From: Clostridiales bacterium
GTDB taxonomy: Bacteria > Bacillota > Clostridia > Christensenellales > CAG-138
DNA: 64,000 bases
Direction: 5' to 3'
Assembly: GCA_012517905.1 (NCBI GenBank)
Contig: JAAYUE010000034.1
Coordinates: 6,752-70,751 of the forward strand
This document shows positions 42,322 through 49,100 of this stretch, piece by piece. The translations under genes and the position numbers were made by a program. The notes under the pieces were generated by a model that was given only the letters and a program-made list of their open reading frames with translations, did no database searches and had not been told where the DNA came from. Positions within the stretch are counted from its first letter, which is position 1. Every line of letters starts with the position of its first letter.

Positions 42322-43593
42322 TCATAATGACATAATCTTTTGTTTCACTTGGGAGATGTCTTCATCTTTTTTCAACAGCAGATGCGGGTTCGCCCGAATC
42401 AAACGACGTTCCCGCGCAAGCGCATCCATTCCTCCGCCGGTGACGTTCAGCATGACAGCCGCATTTTTTTCGATCGATCCTTCCTTTGCTTTCCGAATCA
42501 GCGATGCGAGCGCTACGCCTGCCTCGGGGCAGATATCCCGCCCTTCCAGCGTTAAAAACAGATCCTGTGCCTCCCGCGCCTCGCTGTTTTCGACAGCGAC
42601 GACGTCCCCGCCCGAATCCATCAGCGCGTCGTACAGCCCGCCGATGATGCCATACGGCGGCTGCCGATTGGAAAGCACCTTGGCGTCGATCGCGTCGATC
42701 TGCTGCCGCGCTTCCTGCTCGTCCAGCGGGTCCAGCGCGCGGCTTTTCTTCGCCCACGCTCGGGCAATCGGCACAAACGGCAGGTTCTGAGATACGATGA
42801 GCCGCATCTTCTTGGGGGCGAAGACGCCGCACGCGTTCAGCCGCAGGTTCGCTTCATGCGCCGCGATCGCGCCCGTACCGCTGCCGACCGCCTGAAAATA
42901 GTAGTCGGGAATCTCGCCGATGGCGGCCGCCGCGGAAAGCACCGTCGTTCCCATGCCGTCCCGCCGGCCGACATTCTTGGCGCCGCCCTCGTTGACAAAC
43001 CCGTCCAGGCGCGCGATCGCGCCTGCCATGCGGATCGCGTCCAGATAGTCCGCGCCGTCGCCGACCGCGATGATTTTGACGCACGGGTGGAGGTCTTCCA
43101 GAGACCACAGGCTGTCAAGGTTCGCCTCGGGCACCACGATCACGGCCTGAATATGGTTTTCGGATGCCACTTTCATGAACGCCCGCGCGGTATTTCCGGC
43201 GGAGGCGACCACGAGTGTGCCGCTGTTTATCGGCATTCTGGCGCAGACGGAATACGCCTCGCATTCCTTAAAGGTCCCCGTCATCATATTCGCGCCGATT
43301 TCGGGCCAGAAGCCGTTAAATGTGACATAGAGTCGATTCAGTCCCAGCGCGCGGCCGAGTTTCGTGCTCAGGTAGGTTACCGGCGCGCCGTCCGACTTGA
43401 TAATCCGGCTGACGGGAAGCCAGTCGGAATATCGGAATATCCCGGGCTGCGTTTCCCGAATGCGAAACTTCTCTTGCGGATAGATCGCGCGCATCAGCGC
43501 CAGATTTGGCGACTCCGGGTTTTCCAGCAGCAGACCGTTGTCCGCAAATTCACGATATGTGCCAAGGCATACCAGCTTGTTATAATTCAGCAT
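42322..43593 (-). CDS. threonine-synthase-like fold-type II PLP enzyme, cysteate synthase-like
   Basis: The probable start is ATG at 43593 (GGAGG 8 nt upstream); TTG at 43608 is an alternative. The PLP-lysine context is MMTGTFKECEA and the Gly-rich loop is AVGSGTGAIAA. The ~420-aa length and the lack of a Thr-synthase SFKDRG signature fit cysteate synthase. Adjacency to an alpha-oxoamine synthase and an SDR supports this call. Confidence 0.55.
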   Translation of the reverse strand: MLNYNKLVCLGTYREFADNGLLLENPESPNLALMRAIYPQEKFRIRETQPGIFRYSDWLPVSRIIKSDGAPVTYLSTKLGRALGLNRLYVTFNGFWPEIGANMMTGTFKECEAYSVCARMPINSGTLVVASAGNTARAFMKVASENHIQAVIVVPEANLDSLWSLEDLHPCVKIIAVGDGADYLDAIRMAGAIARLDGFVNEGGAKNVGRRDGMGTTVLSAAAAIGEIPDYYFQAVGSGTGAIAAHEANLRLNACGVFAPKKMRLIVSQNLPFVPIARAWAKKSRALDPLDEQEARQQIDAIDAKVLSNRQPPYGIIGGLYDALMDSGGDVVAVENSEAREAQDLFLTLEGRDICPEAGVALASLIRKAKEGSIEKNAAVMLNVTGGGMDALARERRLIRANPHLLLKKDEDISQVKQKIMSL

Positions 43594-43626
43594 ACGCATT
43601 TCCTCCAATCATCCGGCTCCGCTAAA

Positions 43627-44292
43627 TCAGACGGGTGGCGCCCATACCTTTAAATCGATCCCTTCGATGATCGCGCGGTCGCCCACCATCTGAACGACCA
43701 CGCCGCTATGCACCTTTCGCATCATGCAATGGCGCGGCAAAAACCGTACTGTCTGTCCGACGAACGGATGCGGCCCTTCGACGATGCCTTCGAACCCGCC
43801 GACCAGACACACGCCGATATCCTGAAACGAAAACTCGCCGCCGGCGTCAACGCGGTTTCTCGGCCCGATCATATGGACGGTGATCAGGCCGTGCGCCTCT
43901 TCGATGATCTTCGCAAAATGGATCATCGGACAGCCGAGCGGCCGGTAGCGGATGATGTCGCCGGCCTGCAGCGCCGCCCTCGAAAACGGGAACAGCACCT
44001 CGCGGCAGGACGGCTCGCCCGGAAGCGGCAACAGCTCGAAATCCGCCTGATATCCGTCGATCAGCCCGATTTCCGCTCTCGCTGTTTCGCCTTCCGGCTT
44101 TACCAGCAACTGCTCCAGCGATGTTCTGTTCTGAGAAAATCGTTCCTGCGCCATGTGCGGACATTGATCGATGCGCGCTTGCCCGCGGCTGAGCTTCTGC
44201 GCGAACGCTTCGCATCGCTTTTCGCCGCATGCGCCGCAGTTGAATCCAGGGAGAAGCGTAAGTACCGACTGACGATTCGTCTCGCTGTTCAT
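43627..44292 (-). CDS. Fe-S cluster-binding protein (RnfB-N-terminal-type Cx2Cx4Cx16C domain) with uncharacterised C-terminal domain
   Basis: NCGACGEKRCEAFAQKLSRGQARIDQCPH gives an exact C-x2-C-x4-C-x16-C motif. I prefer the start at ATG 44292 (GGAGAA 7 nt upstream); ATG 44310 is possible. I did not recognise the ~150-aa C-terminal part. Confidence 0.65.
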   Translation of the reverse strand: MNSETNRQSVLTLLPGFNCGACGEKRCEAFAQKLSRGQARIDQCPHMAQERFSQNRTSLEQLLVKPEGETARAEIGLIDGYQADFELLPLPGEPSCREVLFPFSRAALQAGDIIRYRPLGCPMIHFAKIIEEAHGLITVHMIGPRNRVDAGGEFSFQDIGVCLVGGFEGIVEGPHPFVGQTVRFLPRHCMMRKVHSGVVVQMVGDRAIIEGIDLKVWAPPV

Positions 44293-44296
44293 GCCG

Positions 44297-44998
44297 CTAT
44301 TCTCCGACATACGTCTGAAATCCGTCGATTCTGCGAAGAACGCCGCGGTGGAATTCCTTTTTGATCCGCGTTTCCCCCACGCAGAGCGTGCAAATCGCCA
44401 ACGGAGCGGAGTGCCTCAGCTTGTCCTCCCCGTTCGATAGATCCCGCGCCTTCATCATGGCCTCGGAACACGCCGCGCAGCCTTGGCCGCTTAATCCGTT
44501 GGCTTCGATAATGGCGCATTTGGGATTGACTTCCAGTATTTTTTCCCTGAAAATCTCACGCTCGGCCTGCGAAATCATATCGCCCTTGGTAACGATCACA
44601 AAATCGGCCGTGCTTAAAAAGGGCCCGAGTTTCAGCGGTGTGTTGGGCCCCGCCGTGGCGTCCGCAACACACACGCCCAGGCATTCCTGACTGTATGGCG
44701 CGCAGCGGTGGCATAGGCCGGCCGTTTCAAGAATCAGAAAGTCCGACTGGTTCTCTTCCGCCCACTCCAGCATTTCGTTCAAATTATAGATTGCAAAATG
44801 ATCGGGGCACATGTCCTTTGAAAGCCCGACCATTACCGGAATACCCAGTTTTGAAAACCGCTTGTCGTCGTCCGTATAGAGACAATCCACCTTGGCGACG
44901 GAGCAGTTCTTTCCGGCCTCGCCGAGGATTCTGAGCGCATGCACCAGAACCGCTGTTTTCCCCGAGCCGGGGGTCCCTGCCACAACGATCAGCTTCAT
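44297..44998 (-). CDS. G3E-family-like P-loop GTPase (HypB/UreG/CobW-like metallochaperone type), Cys-rich
   Basis: Walker A is [19 protein letters not shown] is the ExxG motif typical of the G3E family, and VTKGD is an NKxD variant. Cys motifs are CHRC, GQGCAAC and CTLC. The start ATG at 44998 overlaps the upstream stop (ATGA). Confidence 0.65.
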
Positions 44999-45816
44999 GC
45001 GGATTCCTCGCTTCTGTATTTCGTATACAGAGACTGCATCAGCGCGCCCTGCGTCTGGCCGCATCGTTCAAAACTTTCGCCTTTTCTGACCTTTTCGCGC
45101 AGCTGCAGCAATAAGCCGTCGATGTTCATCAAATCCTCAAGCAACTCCGTTTCGTCTTGCGTTGTGTCGATGATCTTTCTCATGCCGCCGTTTTTCATGA
45201 CGATCCGCTTCTCCGTCATCAGCGCAAGCACCGGATCGTGCGTTACCACCATCACGATTTTGCCGTTGCCGATCAGCGCTTTCAGCGCCTCATGCTTTCT
45301 GATGCCCGCATTCTCCACTTCGTCGATGAGTACGATGGGGGAATCGCTGATGACGGCGACGTCCGCCACCATAAGCGCGCGCGACTGGCCGCCGCTGAGG
45401 ATCGTCAGGTTATAGTCCTTTTTGATGGGCTCGCCGGTCAGCGTGTTGGCAAGGCGCAATACTTCCTGCACATGGGAATCCCGCACGCCGCGGCATTTGG
45501 CGTGCAGACACAAAAATTCTCCGACCGACATATCGGCAAGAAAGCTCATGTTCTGCGATATCTGCGCGATCATTTTCTTTCTTGGATCGGTGCGGGTCTG
45601 ATAATCGGGAACCGCATCATCCAGCAAAATCCGTCTCCGTGAGAAAGTGTCTCCCTGCGCCATCTGCTCGATATCGCTGATCAGAGAACTTTTTCCGCTG
45701 CCCGTCGGGCCGACTACGCCAAACATCTCGCCCGGTCTGATGTCGATTTGCTCGACGGGCTCTTTGATGCCGATCTTGTCGTAGCCCCCAAGAATCGTAA
45801 TCTTTCTGATGTCCAT
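44995..45816 (-). CDS. ABC-type ATPase without cognate permease in the operon
   Basis: Walker A is GPTGSGKSS, the signature is LSGGQ, Walker B is VLIDEVEN and the H-loop is VTHD. The start is ATG at 45816, after AAGGAGAG. No membrane-protein gene lies in this operon. Confidence 0.8.
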
Positions 45817-45845
45817 ACGCTCTCCTTGATAAAAATGATCAGGCA

Positions 45846-45881
45846 ATAAAAAACATCCTGACAGCTTAAACTATCAGGATG
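45846..45881 (-). terminator. strong rho-independent terminator (minus strand) between two-component genes and ABC-ATPase start
   Basis: The minus-strand RNA reads CAUCCUGAUAG-UUUAAG-CUGUCAGGAUG-UUUUUUAU: an 11-bp stem with one G-U pair, a 6-nt loop and a U6 tract. The U tract exists only in the minus orientation. Confidence 0.75.
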
Positions 45882-45899
45882 AGGATCGTTCTTTCATTT

Positions 45900-45928
45900 A
45901 TTATAACAAGCAGGGACATTGAAAAATG
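45900..45928 (-). promoter_or_regulatory. extended -10 promoter candidate (minus strand) with poor -35, i.e. activator-dependent type
   Basis: The minus strand reads CTTGtTATAAT (TATAAT = 45905-45900, TG = 45908-45907). The -35 position reads CATTTT. The element lies 5 nt downstream of the promoter-proximal 9-bp repeat. Confidence 0.5.
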
Positions 45929-45933
45929 ACGTA

Positions 45934-46004
45934 TTCACGACGAAACCGATGCCGTTTGCGACAGCCCGAAACCGATTCGCGACAAAAAAAGCTCATTCGC
46001 GACA
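45934..46004 (-). promoter_or_regulatory. four 9-bp direct repeats in 21-bp phase: candidate LytTR response-regulator binding array
   Basis: On the plus strand: TTCACGACG (45934), TTTGCGACA (45955), TTCGCGACA (45976) and TTCGCGACA (45996). Start-to-start spacing is 21, 21 and 20 bp. The last copy overlaps the final three codons of the kinase gene. Confidence 0.5.
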
Positions 46005-47342
46005 AGCCGATGAAATGTTTAATTCCTGAACGAAAAATCCGTTGTCGATCACGGTGTTGAGTGTGACGTGTTCGTAGTCCTTGAGGATGTTTTGGAGCGT
46101 GAAGAGCCCGGTTCCCCGTCCTTCGCCCTTTGTGGAGTACCCTTCCTGAAACAGCAGGTTCATCATGGGTCTGTCGGAAAACGAATTGGCGACGACGATG
46201 CTGATGTTTTGATTGTCGTCTCTGGTTGCCGAAAGAGACAGCACCTTGTCCTCGGAGTCCTTCGCCGCCTCTATGGCGTTATCCAGAAAAATGCCCATCA
46301 CCCGGCATAGATCGATTGCTTGCATCCCAGTTTCATCCAGATAGTCGTCGATCGAGACGGATATTTTGATGTCGCGATCCAGAGCGCGTTGAAACGCGGT
46401 GGTGAGCAGCCCTTTCAGCGAGACACACTTGATATACTCGATATATAAAAACACGCTGTTTTTATCAAGGATGGCGGATTGGTTTTTCAGGATTTCCCGG
46501 TAATAATACGTCCTCAGCCCCTCGATATCGTTTTGCTCGATATAACTCCTTAACGTCAGCAGGATGTTGTTGTAGTCATGCCGGAAGGCGCGGATATCCT
46601 TGGTGAGCTTTTCAATGATGCCCGTATAGATGAGCAGCTGTTCGTACTTTTCTTTTTGTTCTTCCAGTTGAATCTTGTTCCGGATCGCAAGCTTATACAG
46701 CAGATATCCGATCAGATTGAGCACCGGCAAAAGCAGGAAGGGAATGTATAACGAAAACCGGTCCTTGTCCAGAATGCCGCGATAGATCCAGAGCAGGCCG
46801 ATCACGGACATCACGACCATCAGCACAAGCGTGAGGTGCACATAAAGCGAAGGCGATGTGTTGGCCAGCCGCTTATACAGGACGCGATACAGTTTTCTCA
46901 GCGAATTGCGGGACAAGAAATTCCATGTCAGCAGGAACACGGCGCAGAGTGCCGCCAGAATCAATATTCCGAAGAATCCGACCAGCCACTCCATGCGGCT
47001 GTTCTTCAACAGAGGGATGTAATGCGCGTTGAGCAATTCCTGCGTGATAACGCCGACGACGTTCAGCAGTATGAATGCCGATAAGTACAGGATGTTTTTT
47101 GTGATCTCCATACGGTAAAACAATATGACCAACAGCGTCACGATAAGCGCCCAGAATACGATCCGAACGGCCAGCATCGGGACCCGCTCCAAAAACAGAT
47201 ACCCCAATATCGTGAACAGCAGATAGACAAGAAAGCGGCGGGGCTCCAGGCGGGCCTTTCTTCCAACCATCAATTGCATGGTAAACGAAAAAACGGTTCC
47301 CGTCAGAATTGCTTCCGAAATATTATAGATGATCCCGTTCAT
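45993..47342 (-). CDS. AgrC/ComD-type (HPK10) membrane sensor histidine kinase
   Basis: The N-terminal half has ~6 hydrophobic TM segments. The H-box is AFRHDYNNILLTL, the N-box is LDNAIEA and the G-box is GEGRGTGL. Confidence 0.85.
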   Translation of the reverse strand: MNGIIYNISEAILTGTVFSFTMQLMVGRKARLEPRRFLVYLLFTILGYLFLERVPMLAVRIVFWALIVTLLVILFYRMEITKNILYLSAFILLNVVGVITQELLNAHYIPLLKNSRMEWLVGFFGILILAALCAVFLLTWNFLSRNSLRKLYRVLYKRLANTSPSLYVHLTLVLMVVMSVIGLLWIYRGILDKDRFSLYIPFLLLPVLNLIGYLLYKLAIRNKIQLEEQKEKYEQLLIYTGIIEKLTKDIRAFRHDYNNILLTLRSYIEQNDIEGLRTYYYREILKNQSAILDKNSVFLYIEYIKCVSLKGLLTTAFQRALDRDIKISVSIDDYLDETGMQAIDLCRVMGIFLDNAIEAAKDSEDKVLSLSATRDDNQNISIVVANSFSDRPMMNLLFQEGYSTKGEGRGTGLFTLQNILKDYEHVTLNTVIDNGFFVQELNISSACRE

Positions 47343-48090
47343 ATCGTAACAATCCTTTTAAGTATCTGGGGGAAATCAGGCATTTATACCCGTGACTCAA
47401 CGTAACATACATGTCGTTTCGGCTCTTGGAAATCGACTGGACGTGCTGCAAATTGATCAAAAAGGAACGATGGCATCGGTAAAAAAAGCTGTCGAGGTGG
47501 TTCTGAAGCTCGTCCAGCGTGTCCCGAAACTCAATGCTTTTATCCTGCGTATGCAATATGATGCTTCGTTTGGCGGTATTGGTCTCAAAATAGATGATGT
47601 CCTTCACAGGGATGATAAAGTCCGTTCCGCTCGTTCGGACCAGCAGCGCCCGCTCTTCCTGCCGCGTGTCCTGGCCGGATATTTCGCGCTGGATCGTATT
47701 CATGCATTGAAAGATTTTTTGTTTGATTTCCTCGTCGCCTTTTAAGATGTAGTCCAGCGCTCTGATTTTATACTGTATCGCCGGAAACGCAAATTCCATG
47801 TGGCTGGTGATAAAGATGATGTATCCAAACGTGTCTTTCCTTCGGATCTTCTGCGCCAGCTGAAGCCCGTTTGAAGAATCTCCGAGGATAATATCTAAAA
47901 AGAAAATATTGAAAACGCCCGAGGCGATATCGATCCTGTCCAAAACGCTTTCATAGTTTTCCGTGACGGCCTGAACATCCCAGTTCAGCTTGTGGGCGGA
48001 CAAATACTCGCCGATACACTGACGGATTTGTCTCGAAATCTGTATATCATCCTCAATGACGTATATCTGATTGTTTTTTCCCATTTTCAT
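47323..48090 (-). CDS. LytTR-family (AgrA/ComE-like) response regulator
   Basis: The receiver N-terminus reads IYVIEDD...FFLDI. The C-terminal LytTR domain reads IPVKDIIYFETNTAKRSIILHT...FFYRCHRSFLINLQHV. The gene overlaps the kinase start by 20 nt. Confidence 0.85.
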   Translation of the reverse strand: MKMGKNNQIYVIEDDIQISRQIRQCIGEYLSAHKLNWDVQAVTENYESVLDRIDIASGVFNIFFLDIILGDSSNGLQLAQKIRRKDTFGYIIFITSHMEFAFPAIQYKIRALDYILKGDEEIKQKIFQCMNTIQREISGQDTRQEERALLVRTSGTDFIIPVKDIIYFETNTAKRSIILHTQDKSIEFRDTLDELQNHLDSFFYRCHRSFLINLQHVQSISKSRNDMYVTLSHGYKCLISPRYLKGLLRYERDHL

Positions 48091-48805
48091 GCCATCCTGA
48101 TTCTATTGCGGCGAACATGCCGCGTTTCGGATCGTTTGTCGAGCGGAATATGGAAAGATCGATTTTCACGAAAAAGCCGTTTGCTTCAAACCGAAGCACT
48201 CATCCATCTTGCGCGCGTTGCATGTTGCCACATTCTTCGGGATAAGAGGAGTGCCTTGCCCGGGTTTGCCCATGCGTCAAAACCTGCTTCGATGCTTTCC
48301 GTGCATTTAACCACGCCCGGCAAAAGAGCAATGCTATTCTCACTATTTTAGCACAGATCGCCGAATACTCACTAGCGAGTATCTTACCGATATCGCATAC
48401 GCAAACCGGAATGGGTGCATCGGAGCACTTTTTTACTCATATTATATCGAATGAAGACCAAACCGCGTTAAGAACATGTAAATTATCTACGGGATGCTAT
48501 ATACGTCTGACAACGATGTAATTCCCGATATGTTGTTTGCTCCATAGAGAGTTCCGGGGGTGACCGCTATATTCTGATCATCGTGCGTTATTTGGAGGGA
48601 TTGCAGAAACAGGAATGAATGATGCGGAATTGGTGTTAGCGCGTTGCGTGGATGAAACGCGTTGCAGCTCTTACGCCAGCGGCTATTTTGATCAGAGGCG
48701 AAAAGACATGAATAGCATGTTGATTAAAAGCTGGACATAGAATTCGCGTTTTGCACACCTTTTGGCGAGAGGGGAGGAATTTTCACACAGCATTGCGGGT
48801 TCCGT

Positions 48806-48949
48806 GTGGCGCAGCCACGCGGCGGCGTTCTCGGGGCGGAGAAACTGTCCCAGAACGTTTTTGCTCGACCCAATTGAATCGAAACAAAAACAAGAGCTCA
48901 TCAAAGATGAACTCTTGTTTTTGGCTAAACCCTCACGAAATGATACAAT
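48806..48949 (+). repeat. intergenic repeat copy 2 (same orientation as copy 1)
   Basis: See copy 1. The 77-nt core at 48853-48929 differs from copy 1 at one position. TTGGCT (48921-48926), a 17-nt spacer and TACAAT (48944-48949) are conserved. Confidence 0.9.
48886..48922. terminator. rho-independent terminator inside repeat copy 2 (can serve the minus-strand DUF364 gene)
   Basis: This is the same hairpin as at 35516-35552, with one stem mismatch (48911). A/T runs lie on both sides. It sits ~180 nt downstream of the DUF364 stop. Confidence 0.65.
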
Positions 48950-49100
48950 CGCGCGAAACGAGAGGGTGGGTGCAGGTGGGTGCAAATCAGCAGAAAAATG
49001 GCAAAGTGATGATTTAATTGGTTCGAGAAACGGTGTTTTCTGTTTCGCTAATTCAGCTAAAGGCAATCTGATGCTATGCGGAATTAGTCTTTTCTATGCT

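What the first reader, a model, noticed from the sequence alone, without database searches (positions are those of the whole stretch)
45934..46004. Four 9-bp direct repeats in 21-bp phase between the LytTR regulator genes and the operon
TTCACGACG, TTTGCGACA, TTCGCGACA and TTCGCGACA start at 45934, 45955, 45976 and 45996, with spacing 21/21/20 bp. A 9-bp direct repeat separated by 12 bp is the classic binding-site layout of LytTR regulators (AgrA, ComE, PlnC). The promoter-proximal repeat ends 5 nt upstream of the -35 position of an extended -10 promoter (TGtTATAAT, minus strand, 45908-45900) with a poor -35, as expected for activator-dependent promoters. The adjacent operon encodes exactly such a regulator. 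This predicts signal- or peptide-dependent control of the sulfonolipid-like operon. Related half-sites (ttcacga, gccgtttgc) recur at ~48165-48188 upstream of the regulator gene, but not in 21-bp phase.
Basis: partly seen in the sequence, partly recalled or inferred. Interest (0 to 1): 0.65.

Follow-up and report, generated by a model that had tools for sequence, protein, structure and literature searches.

The report
LytTR operator before a sulfonolipid operon
Four short DNA repeats spaced two helical turns apart are very probably where the neighbouring LytTR regulator binds to switch on a cysteate/sulfonolipid operon; the switch type is ordinary, but it gives a first predicted regulatory handle on bacterial sulfonolipid genes.

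Summary
On the minus strand, TGTCGCGAA, TGTCGCGAA, TGTCGCAAA and CGTCGTGAA start 20, 21 and 21 bp apart at 46004-45934. The last repeat ends 28 nt upstream of TGtTATAAT (45908-45900).

The array is not chance. It is the top phased pair in the 2.99-Mb genome, and only one other place, a 21-bp tandem repeat, reaches the same model-free score.

Nine further contigs carry an orthologous AgrC-like kinase and LytTR regulator (49-82% kinase identity, including a Treponema MAG). All have TGTCGYGAA repeats in 20-22-bp phase directly after the kinase gene. In the eight that face a co-directional gene, the proximal repeat lies 27-29 nt upstream of an extended -10. Repeats are 78% identical between loci and spacers 36%.

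The genes behind the promoter vary but always concern cysteate: cysteate synthase, the acyltransferase, or transporters. About 30 acyltransferase loci without this kinase and regulator lack the array. So do unrelated LytTR systems.

I read it as the operator of an activator-dependent promoter (confidence 0.85). Binding, the transcription start and the signal are untested. No AgrB or peptide gene exists, and no conserved site precedes the regulator gene. A strong terminator-like hairpin in the leader remains unexplained. This is a new member of a known kind.

The parts
45996..46004 (-). Repeat 1 (distal), TGTCGCGAA. It overlaps the last three codons (Cys-Arg-Glu) of the kinase gene.
   Evidence: It is the best conserved repeat, with 84% pairwise identity among seven loci in a first pass that had one locus (L007) mis-registered at R3/R4. 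In L003, L004, L006 and L008 it likewise encodes C-R-E or C-R-Q followed by the stop. In L005, L007, L012 and L013 it lies after the stop.
45976..45984 (-). Repeat 2, TGTCGCGAA, 20 bp after repeat 1 and preceded by a T-run.
   Evidence: The T-run just upstream of it is conserved in nearly all loci.
45955..45963 (-). Repeat 3, TGTCGCAAA, 21 bp after repeat 2.
45934..45942 (-). Repeat 4 (promoter-proximal), CGTCGTGAA. It spans about -49 to -41 relative to the predicted start.
   Evidence: The proximal repeat ends 28 nt before the -10 hexamer in 8 of the 10 four-repeat arrays tabulated, 27 nt in L013 and 29 nt in L007. The two-repeat array of L006 also has 28 nt.
45923..45933 (-). T-rich stretch where a -35 hexamer would lie (CATTTT with a 17-bp spacer). 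There is no TTGACA-like hexamer.
   Evidence: No conserved -35 appears in any orthologue. The consensus promoter scan did not report this promoter.
45900..45908 (-). Extended -10, TGtTATAAT.
   Evidence: A TGnTAnnnT element stands at the same distance in 8 of the 10 four-repeat arrays; L004 and L015 have the hexamer but lack the T of TGn. Pairwise identity is 79%.
45891..45895 (-). Predicted transcription start, 5-9 nt after the -10.
   Evidence: Inference from promoter geometry only.
45846..45881 (-). Terminator-like leader hairpin (12-pair stem, 4-nt loop) followed by TTTTTTATT. It lies between the promoter and the start codon.
   Evidence: It is strong only in this genome. L008 and L004/L015 have leader hairpins with weaker T-runs, and L005 and L012 have short leaders with none. 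No Rfam family matches.
45814..45827 (-). Shine-Dalgarno sequence AAGGAGAG (45827-45820) and the ATG (45816-45814) of the first operon gene, an ABC-type ATPase.
45993..47342 (-). AgrC-like (HPK10, GHKL) membrane histidine kinase, 449 aa.
   Evidence: Pfam HATPase_c_5 at 3e-17. NCBIfam AgrC scores 189 bits against a cut-off of 500. His255 in the FRHD motif is invariant in 10 orthologues.
47323..48090 (-). LytTR response regulator, 255 aa. Its gene overlaps the kinase gene by 20 nt.
   Evidence: Pfam LytTR at 5e-24 and Response_reg at 1e-8. The closest solved structures are ComE 4cbv (3e-16) and the AgrA LytTR domain 3bs1 (1e-11). The acceptor Asp66 and the predicted base-reading residues Arg175 and Arg208 are invariant in eight orthologues; Arg242 is Lys in the Treponema locus L005.
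39168..45816 (-). Target operon: ABC ATPase, CobW-like GTPase, Fe-S protein, cysteate synthase, alpha-oxoamine synthase (cysteate acyltransferase-like), short-chain dehydrogenase, and a glyoxalase-fold protein.
   Evidence: Pfam. Cysteate synthase TIGR03844 scores 437 bits against a cut-off of 325.

Best explanation
The four TGTCGYGAA repeats are the operator of the LytTR response regulator encoded immediately upstream (47323-48090).

Proposed mechanism: the AgrC-like kinase (45993-47342) phosphorylates the regulator at Asp66. Phosphorylated regulator then binds the repeats as two dimers, R1-R2 and R3-R4. A 21-bp phase puts all four sites on one face of the helix. The protomer on R4, at about -49 to -41, recruits RNA polymerase to a promoter that has an extended -10 (TGtTATAAT) but no usable -35. 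Transcription of the seven-gene cysteate-synthase/sulfonolipid-like operon starts near 45893.

This is a dedicated local switch. The array is the only such site in the genome, and nothing comparable precedes the regulator gene, so there is no Agr-style positive feedback.

What is shown: the sequence anatomy, its conservation, its exclusive association with this kinase-regulator family, and its uniqueness in the genome.

What is inferred: binding by this regulator, activation rather than repression, the start site, and the stoichiometry. The signal is unknown and is probably not a peptide.
For: 1. Anatomy. Four 9-bp direct repeats at 20/21/21-bp spacing end 28 nt before TGtTATAAT, with no -35. 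This matches the published LytTR layout. AgrA repeats are separated by 12-13 bp and lie upstream of the -35 (PMC5600425). PlnC and PlnD bind two 9-bp repeats with a 12-bp spacer directly upstream of the -35 (PMC2714321). RcoM and CoxC use three repeats at 12-13-bp spacing (PMC11347149).

2. Cognate proteins. The adjacent genes encode a LytTR response regulator and a GHKL kinase. The catalytic residues are intact and invariant.

3. Phylogenetic footprint. Kinase orthologues of 49-82% identity were traced to nine further contigs, one of them from a Treponema MAG. All carry TGTCGYGAA repeats in 20-22-bp phase directly after the kinase gene. Eight of them have TGnTAnnnT 27-29 nt after the proximal repeat. 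Pairwise identity is 0.78 in repeats, 0.79 in the -10, 0.36 in spacers and 0.34 between R4 and the -10.

4. The array follows the kinase and regulator, not the operon. The gene behind the promoter is an ABC ATPase, a cysteate synthase, the acyltransferase, a YeiH-like transporter or an SDF transporter, depending on the locus. About 30 acyltransferase loci without the kinase and regulator score at most 15.8 bits, against 25.9-30.1 bits for all loci that have them. Unrelated HPK10/LytTR loci score at most 10.6 bits.

5. Uniqueness. This is the top-scoring site in the genome with a matrix built from other loci. It is one of only two places that reach the maximum in the model-free scan.

6. Specificity logic. 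The positions that read bases in AgrA are His169, Asn201 and Arg233 (PMC5600425). Here they are Arg175, Arg208 and Arg242; the first two are invariant in the family and the third is Lys in one orthologue. This fits a conserved but non-AgrA, G/C-rich motif.
Against: - No binding or expression data exist.
- A strong terminator-like hairpin with a T-run (45881-45846) sits inside the predicted leader. Taken at face value it would stop most transcripts about 47 nt after the start. The simple 'activator turns the operon on' picture is therefore incomplete for this genome.
- One orthologous locus, seen on two contigs (L010 and L011), keeps two phased repeats after the kinase gene. It has no -10 at the expected distance and the next gene is convergent. 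The repeats can therefore persist without the promoter.
- Inner repeats are degenerate in some loci (R2 in L012 and L013, R3 in L007), so four occupied sites are not universal.
- Several orthologous contigs come from related metagenomes. The window, L004, L015 and L003 are close relatives, and the two arrays in L005 are copies of each other. The number of truly independent lineages is about six to seven, not ten.
Confidence: 0.85

Rival explanations
1. The neighbouring LytTR regulator binds the repeats, but the effect is repression, a roadblock to read-through from the kinase gene, or a mix of activation and repression as with PlnC and PlnD. It is not plain activation.
For: Repeat 1 sits on the kinase stop codon. 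In most loci no terminator separates the kinase gene from the operon, so read-through must be handled somehow. CoxC is a LytTR repressor with a three-repeat operator (PMC11347149). PlnD represses from the same repeats that PlnC activates (PMC2714321).
Against: CoxC's operator overlaps the -35. Here the array ends 5 nt upstream of where a -35 would be, and no -35 consensus exists in any orthologue. That is the signature of activator dependence. The fixed 27-29-nt distance to the -10 argues for a contact with RNA polymerase rather than a mere block.
Confidence: 0.07
2. The repeats are the site of a different transcription factor, for example a sulfur-metabolism regulator that belongs to the operon, and lie next to the LytTR genes only by synteny.
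For: No binding data exist. The motif does not match the AgrA consensus. The regulated genes all concern cysteate or sulfur.
Against: About 30 acyltransferase or cysteate-synthase loci without the kinase and regulator lack the array. Loci that have them keep the array whatever the first downstream gene is. No other regulator gene is shared by these loci. The direct-repeat layout at 21-bp phase is that of LytTR domains.
Confidence: 0.04
3. The repeats act as RNA. They would lie in the 3' untranslated region of the kinase transcript, for example as protein-binding sites or part of a terminator or attenuator, rather than as DNA sites.
For: In this genome the only convincing terminator after the kinase gene lies downstream of the array, so the repeats are probably also transcribed as the tail of the kinase mRNA. 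A conserved T-run precedes repeat 2.
Against: No consistent hairpin forms around repeat 1 and the T-run in 11 arrays. No Rfam family matches. A 21-nt phase and a fixed distance to a -10 element have a meaning on the DNA helix and none for known RNA-binding repeats.
Confidence: 0.02
4. The array is a functionless leftover of a local 21- or 42-bp duplication, or chance similarity.
For: Repeats 1 and 2 are identical. L006 has only two repeats, so a 42-bp duplication or deletion did occur in the family. The two arrays in L005 are copies of each other, spacers included.
Against: Within one array only the 9-mers are alike, not the spacers. The 9-mers are conserved across loci whose spacers have randomised (0.78 against 0.36). 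Genome-wide statistics are against chance.
Confidence: 0.02

Closest known systems
AgrA operators at agr P2/P3 of Staphylococcus aureus (with the AgrC kinase)
   Same: Imperfect 9-bp direct repeats separated by 12-13 bp lie upstream of a weak -35 (PMC5600425). The regulator is a receiver plus LytTR protein and the kinase is a polytopic HPK10/GHKL protein. These are the best NCBIfam matches for both proteins. The cysteines that align with AgrA Cys199 and Cys228 are conserved.
   Different: The motif is TGTCGYGAA, not [TA][AC][CA]GTTN[AG][TG]. There are four repeats instead of two. There is no AgrB or AgrD, no operator in front of the regulator genes and no RNAIII-like target. Two of the three base-reading residues differ (His169 to Arg, Asn201 to Arg). 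Both proteins score far below the AgrA and AgrC cut-offs (128 of 400 bits and 189 of 500 bits).
ComE boxes of Streptococcus pneumoniae and the PlnC/PlnD repeats of Lactobacillus plantarum
   Same: Two 9-bp repeats with a 12-bp spacer lie directly upstream of the promoter and are bound cooperatively by a dimer. One repeat is often degenerate (PMC2714321). ComE (4cbv) is the closest solved full-length structure.
   Different: Those systems are peptide-pheromone circuits that activate their own operons and bacteriocin or competence genes. Here the target is a lipid and cysteate pathway, with no peptide, transporter or self-activation. The repeat sequence is unrelated (TACGTTAAT against TGTCGYGAA).
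RcoM and CoxC LytTR operators (carbon-monoxide regulators)
   Same: These arrays have more than two direct repeats: three 8-bp repeats, TTCNNGCA, at 12-13-bp spacing (PMC11347149). Read on the other strand, the present repeat is TTCGCGACA, which loosely resembles TTCNNGCA.
   Different: Those are one-component regulators with haem or MHYT sensor domains, not two-component systems. CoxC represses from a site that overlaps the -35. The resemblance of the motifs is one base out of register and may mean nothing.
Sulfonolipid (capnine) pathway of Alistipes and Bacteroidota
   Same: The regulated operon has the same enzyme logic of cysteate synthase, cysteate acyltransferase and ketoreductase (PMC9304779, PMC11211663, PMC13692747).
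   Different: The papers held here describe enzymes in Bacteroidota. No held paper contains both 'LytTR' and 'sulfonolipid', and the most recent acyltransferase paper mentions neither transcription, two-component systems nor Clostridia. The present loci are in Bacillota and a Treponema MAG.

Membership tests
LytTR-type direct-repeat operator (AgrA/ComE/PlnC class) | Direct, not inverted, repeats of about 9 bp | tested here: met
   There are four same-strand 9-mers, TGTCG[CT][GA]AA. The consensus holds over 32 sites from nine loci.
LytTR-type direct-repeat operator (AgrA/ComE/PlnC class) | Spacer of 12-13 bp, that is about 21 bp start to start, which puts the sites on one face of the helix | tested here: met
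   Spacing is 20, 21 and 21 bp here and 20-22 bp in all orthologous arrays. The literature layout is given.
LytTR-type direct-repeat operator (AgrA/ComE/PlnC class) | [quoted passage not shown] | tested here: met
   The proximal repeat ends 28 nt before the -10 hexamer, which is 5 nt before a nominal -35. The distance is 27-29 nt in all 11 arrays that have a promoter, counting the two-repeat array of L006. The promoter itself is predicted, not mapped.
LytTR-type direct-repeat operator (AgrA/ComE/PlnC class) | A LytTR-domain regulator is encoded in the same locus | tested here: met
   Pfam LytTR at 5e-24. The regulator is present in every orthologous locus that is not cut off by a contig end.
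LytTR-type direct-repeat operator (AgrA/ComE/PlnC class) | The regulator binds the repeats, shown by gel shift or footprint | not testable with these tools
   This needs purified protein. The only indirect support is that the array co-occurs exclusively with this regulator family.
AgrA box (Staphylococcus-type specificity) | Match to the consensus [TA][AC][CA]GTTN[AG][TG] | tested here: not met
   Both TGTCGCGAA and its complement TTCGCGACA fail from position 2 onward (consensus from PMC5600425). Two of the three base-reading residues differ.
Agr-type peptide quorum-sensing system | AgrB processing protein and AgrD peptide precursor | tested here: not met
   PF04647 has no match in the whole genome. 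There is no plausible small ORF in 48091-49100. The orthologous loci share no upstream gene.
Agr-type peptide quorum-sensing system | Autoinduction: an operator in front of the regulator and kinase genes | tested here: not met
   No phased repeats lie upstream of the regulator gene here or in six orthologues.
Agr-type peptide quorum-sensing system | Regulator and kinase reach the AgrA and AgrC equivalog scores | tested here: not met
   The scores are 128 bits against a cut-off of 400, and 189 bits against a cut-off of 500.
Phosphorylation-dependent two-component system | Conserved acceptor Asp, acidic pocket and Lys in the receiver, and the H-box His in the kinase | tested here: met
   Glu13, Asp14, Asp66, Thr95/Ser96 and Lys117 are invariant in eight regulators. 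His255 (FRHD), Asn355 and the G-box glycines are invariant in ten kinases.

The most novel reading that the evidence does not exclude
This kinase-regulator pair defines a small, horizontally mobile family of Agr-type (HPK10/LytTR) systems that has left peptide quorum sensing. It would sense a non-peptide cue tied to cysteate or sulfonolipid metabolism, such as cysteate, sulfite, the lipid itself or a membrane state. It would travel as a 'sensor + operator + cysteate gene' module between Bacillota and Spirochaetota. That would make it the first known regulator of bacterial sulfonolipid synthesis. The strong leader terminator in this genome would then be a second, still unknown, control layer.
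Probability: 0.35. Interest if true: 0.7.

Novelty: new member of a known kind. Interest (0 to 1): 0.45.

Why it matters
Sulfonolipids and capnine are bioactive bacterial lipids. They act as gut immune modulators and as cues for choanoflagellate development. Their enzymes have only recently been identified, and in Bacteroidota. In the library searched here, no paper contains both 'LytTR' and 'sulfonolipid'.

This finding gives a concrete, testable regulatory element: a 9-bp motif, its phase, and its distance to the promoter. It also names the two-component system that most likely reads it, in organisms where the pathway itself is unexpected.

It adds a defined recognition motif, with conserved arginines at two of the three base-reading positions, to the few LytTR specificities known. 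It also gives an example of an AgrC/AgrA-like pair that is not part of a peptide circuit.

In practice, the operator plus a phosphomimetic regulator could serve as a reporter to screen for the signal that induces sulfonolipid genes.

Tried and rejected
- Autoregulatory site upstream of the regulator gene: the half-sites at 48165-48188 are 15 bp apart and nothing similar is conserved in six orthologues. Rejected.
- Other regulon members in this genome: consensus and matrix scans find no second credible phased pair. The next best (22.9 bits) has no -10 at the conserved distance in the sequence shown.
- Known RNA element in the leader: Rfam gives only a chance-level match (25 bits against a gathering score of 60) here and nothing in the 230-nt leader of L008.
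- Repeat 1 plus the T-run as the terminator of the kinase operon: folds are weak and inconsistent across 11 arrays. Rejected.
- Leader peptide for the hairpin: the only ATG (45897-45895) begins 3 nt after the -10, so it would not be fully transcribed. Rejected on geometry.
- Conservation within the genus: neither the kinase nor the first operon gene occurs in 35 same-genus genomes or in 24 further genomes of the same order. Close relatives therefore could not be used.
- Phylum-wide pattern scan of 400 genomes: six hits against seven control hits, and none lies next to an orthologous kinase or regulator. This added no instances.
I replaced it with tblastn in the Python box.
- A degenerate H-box DNA pattern for spotting kinases in loci missed known orthologues and was dropped.

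Full report
**1. The observation**

| Repeat (plus strand) | Coordinates |
|---|---|
| TTCACGACG | 45934-45942 |
| TTTGCGACA | 45955-45963 |
| TTCGCGACA | 45976-45984 |
| TTCGCGACA | 45996-46004 |

All genes here are on the minus strand. In the direction of transcription the array reads R1 TGTCGCGAA, R2 TGTCGCGAA, R3 TGTCGCAAA and R4 CGTCGTGAA, with starts 20, 21 and 21 bp apart.

R4 is followed by 28 nt and then TATAAT (45905-45900), which is preceded by TGt. This gives the extended -10 TGTTATAAT at 45908-45900. With a 17-bp spacer the -35 would be CATTTT, and the consensus promoter scan did not report this promoter at all.

R1 overlaps the last three codons (Cys-Arg-Glu) of the 449-aa ORF whose stop codon is at 45995-45993.

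**2. Is it more than chance?**

- TGTCGCGAA occurs 35 times on both strands of the 2.99-Mb, 58.7% G+C assembly. The only two exact copies within 60 bp of each other are R1 and R2.
- A weight matrix built only from sites in other loci ranks this array's three pairs first, second and third in the genome (30.1, 29.7 and 24.8 bits). The next best is 22.9 bits.
- I also ran a model-free scan for any 9-mer present four times at 20-22-bp spacing. It reaches its maximum (33 of 36 columns) at two places in 2.98 million positions: here, and at a 21-bp tandem repeat on another contig.

**3. The genes around it**

Upstream, in transcription order:
- A 255-aa receiver plus LytTR response regulator (Pfam LytTR 5e-24).
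- Overlapping it by 20 nt, a 449-aa polytopic GHKL (HATPase_c_5) kinase.

Their best curated matches are AgrA and AgrC, but far below the cut-offs: 128 of 400 bits and 189 of 500 bits. The closest solved structures are ComE (4cbv) and the AgrA LytTR domain (3bs1).

Downstream lies a seven-gene operon: ABC-type ATPase, CobW-like GTPase, Fe-S protein, cysteate synthase (TIGR03844, 437 bits against a cut-off of 325), an alpha-oxoamine synthase, a short-chain dehydrogenase and a glyoxalase-fold protein. Earlier notes of this scan read it as a capnine or sulfonolipid-base operon.

**4. Comparative test**

The kinase and the first operon gene are absent from 35 genomes of the same genus and from 24 further genomes of the same order. 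The block is therefore accessory.

A search of the large protein collection found a sharply bounded group of nine orthologous kinases at 49-82% identity. After that, identity drops to 45% or less.

I fetched their contigs. In every one the LytTR gene immediately precedes and overlaps the kinase gene. In every one, TGTCGYGAA-like repeats in 20-22-bp phase begin at or just after the kinase stop codon.

Eight loci show a promoter. They are L003, L004 and its cut relative L015, L005 from a Treponema MAG, L006, L007, L008, L012 and L013. Their features:
- The proximal repeat is followed by 28 nt (27 in L013, 29 in L007) and then TGnTAnnnT.
- L006 has only two repeats, yet keeps the 28-nt distance.
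- L005 has a second, copied array in front of a transporter gene.

Among seven loci taken as independent, pairwise identities are:

| Region | Pairwise identity |
|---|---|
| Repeats | 0.78 |
| Extended -10 | 0.79 |
| Spacers between repeats | 0.36 |
| Between R4 and the -10 | 0.34 |

Over 32 sites from nine loci the consensus is T28 G31 T28 C31 G30 (C19/T12) (G17/A8/C6) A31 A32.

**5. Does the array belong to the regulator or to the operon?**

The first gene behind the promoter differs between loci:
- ABC ATPase: window, L003, L004, L015 and L006.
- Cysteate synthase: L007.
- The acyltransferase: L008.
- A YeiH-like transporter followed by cysteate synthase: L005.
- An SDF-family transporter: L012 and the second array of L005.

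As a control I scanned metagenomes with an alignment of the acyltransferase and obtained 47 loci. I mapped their genes with tblastn.
- Loci without the kinase and regulator have best phased-pair scores of at most 15.8 bits. Many of them include 3-8 kb of upstream sequence.
- All loci with the kinase and regulator score 25.9-30.1 bits.
- Three unrelated HPK10/LytTR loci score at most 10.6 bits.

The array therefore follows this kinase-regulator family and nothing else. What the regulated genes share is cysteate: making it, moving it, or using it.

**6. Mechanism**

The layout is that of known LytTR operators:
- AgrA: 9-bp imperfect direct repeats, 12-13 bp apart, upstream of the -35 (PMC5600425).
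- PlnC/PlnD: two 9-bp repeats with a 12-bp spacer, bound cooperatively by a dimer. One repeat is often degenerate (PMC2714321).
- RcoM and CoxC: three repeats (PMC11347149).

The receiver has the acidic pocket, Asp66, Thr95/Ser96 and Lys117. The kinase has His255 and the ATP-lid motifs. All are invariant in the family, so this is a working phosphorelay.

I therefore propose that phosphorylated regulator occupies R3-R4 and R1-R2 as two dimers on one face of the DNA. It would recruit RNA polymerase to a promoter that relies on its extended -10 and lacks a -35.

The positions that read bases in AgrA are His169, Asn201 and Arg233 (PMC5600425). Here they are Arg175, Arg208 and Arg242. The first two are invariant in the family; the third is Lys in the Treponema locus. 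This fits a conserved but different, G/C-rich motif.

Binding, activation, stoichiometry and the start near 45893 are all inferences.

**7. What it is not**

It is not an Agr-type quorum-sensing circuit:
- AgrB is absent from the genome.
- No plausible peptide gene lies upstream.
- The orthologous loci share no neighbour besides the target genes.
- No operator precedes the regulator genes.

The sensor half of the kinase diverges faster than the kinase half (mean pairwise identity 0.43 against 0.64) but stays alignable with invariant residues. This does not settle what the signal is.

**8. Unexplained: the leader**

A 12-pair hairpin followed by TTTTTTATT (45881-45846) lies about 12-47 nt after the predicted start and 30 nt before the ATG. 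It looks like an efficient intrinsic terminator. There is no room for an aptamer or a second promoter, and no Rfam family matches.

Among the orthologues, L008 and L004/L015 have leader hairpins with weaker T-runs. L003 and L006 have only weak ones. L005 and L012 have short leaders with none. It is therefore not part of the conserved switch.

One possibility rests on the fact that R1 sits on the kinase stop codon, which leaves no space for a terminator upstream of the operator. The hairpin may insulate the operon from read-through out of the kinase gene, at the cost of damping induced transcripts. This is speculation.

L010 and L011 keep two repeats but have no promoter and face a convergent gene. 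That is a second loose end.

**9. Novelty and verdict**

The kind of element is well known, and this scan has already met several comparable LytTR operators in other genomes.

What is new here:
- The motif.
- The four-site array anchored on the kinase stop codon.
- The absence of self-activation and of a peptide.
- The target, a cysteate/sulfonolipid pathway. No held paper contains both 'LytTR' and 'sulfonolipid', and the most recent acyltransferase paper mentions no regulation.

The module is rare. A pattern scan of 400 genomes across the phylum found no further instance.

I rate it a new member of a known kind, of moderate interest, with 0.85 confidence in the operator reading.

Noticed in passing
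L005:12154-12259 (Treponema MAG contig WRLF01000005): A second four-repeat array lies between the cysteate synthase-like gene and an SDF-family transporter gene. It is a near copy of the first array, spacers included. TGtTATCGT stands at the conserved 28-nt distance and a TATAAT at 18 nt. In this lineage the regulon therefore has two promoters and includes a possible cysteate or amino-acid transporter.
   Followed up: partly
L010:3184-3262 and L011:2433-2462: An orthologous kinase and regulator (49% identity) are followed by TGTCGTGAA-N12-GGTCGCGAA. There is no -10 at the conserved distance, and the next gene is convergent (485 aa, no Pfam match). This is either a decayed operator or a use of the repeats that needs no promoter.
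   Followed up: partly
window 45993-46004, and the same place in L003, L004, L006 and L008: Repeat 1 doubles as the last three codons of the kinase gene (TGT CGC GAA or CAA, giving Cys-Arg-Glu or Cys-Arg-Gln, then stop). In orthologues where the repeat lies after the stop, the kinase ends differently (INE, IEE, IVE). The operator appears to dictate the C-terminus of the protein.
   Followed up: yes
window 45985-45992, and the aligned columns in A1: A run of 5-8 T immediately 5' of repeat 2 is conserved in nearly all arrays, although the rest of that spacer is not. It does not form a consistent terminator with repeat 1. It may be a bend or part of an extended site.
   Followed up: partly
window 47323-48090 (regulator residues Cys206 and Cys237): The two cysteines that align with AgrA Cys199 and Cys228 are invariant in all eight orthologous regulators. 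From my own knowledge, that pair forms a redox-sensitive disulfide in S. aureus AgrA. A redox input into DNA binding is conceivable.
   Followed up: no
window 45817-48090 compared with 39168-45816: The regulator and kinase genes are 45% and 49% G+C and the intergenic region is 41%. The operon genes are 54-60% and the genome is 58.7%. The kinase and the first operon gene are missing from 35 same-genus genomes. The sensor module and the operon may have different histories.
   Followed up: partly
L008:9464-9698: A 230-nt leader lies between the conserved promoter and the acyltransferase gene. It has a long hairpin followed by TATTTTTGTG and no Rfam match, so it may be an attenuator or an undescribed leader RNA.
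   Followed up: partly
genome contig C56:20262-20360 (outside the window): A G+C-rich 21-bp tandem repeat (units such as GCTTCGGGCGTTTCTACTGCA) is the only other place in the genome that reaches the top score in the phased-repeat scan.
   Followed up: no
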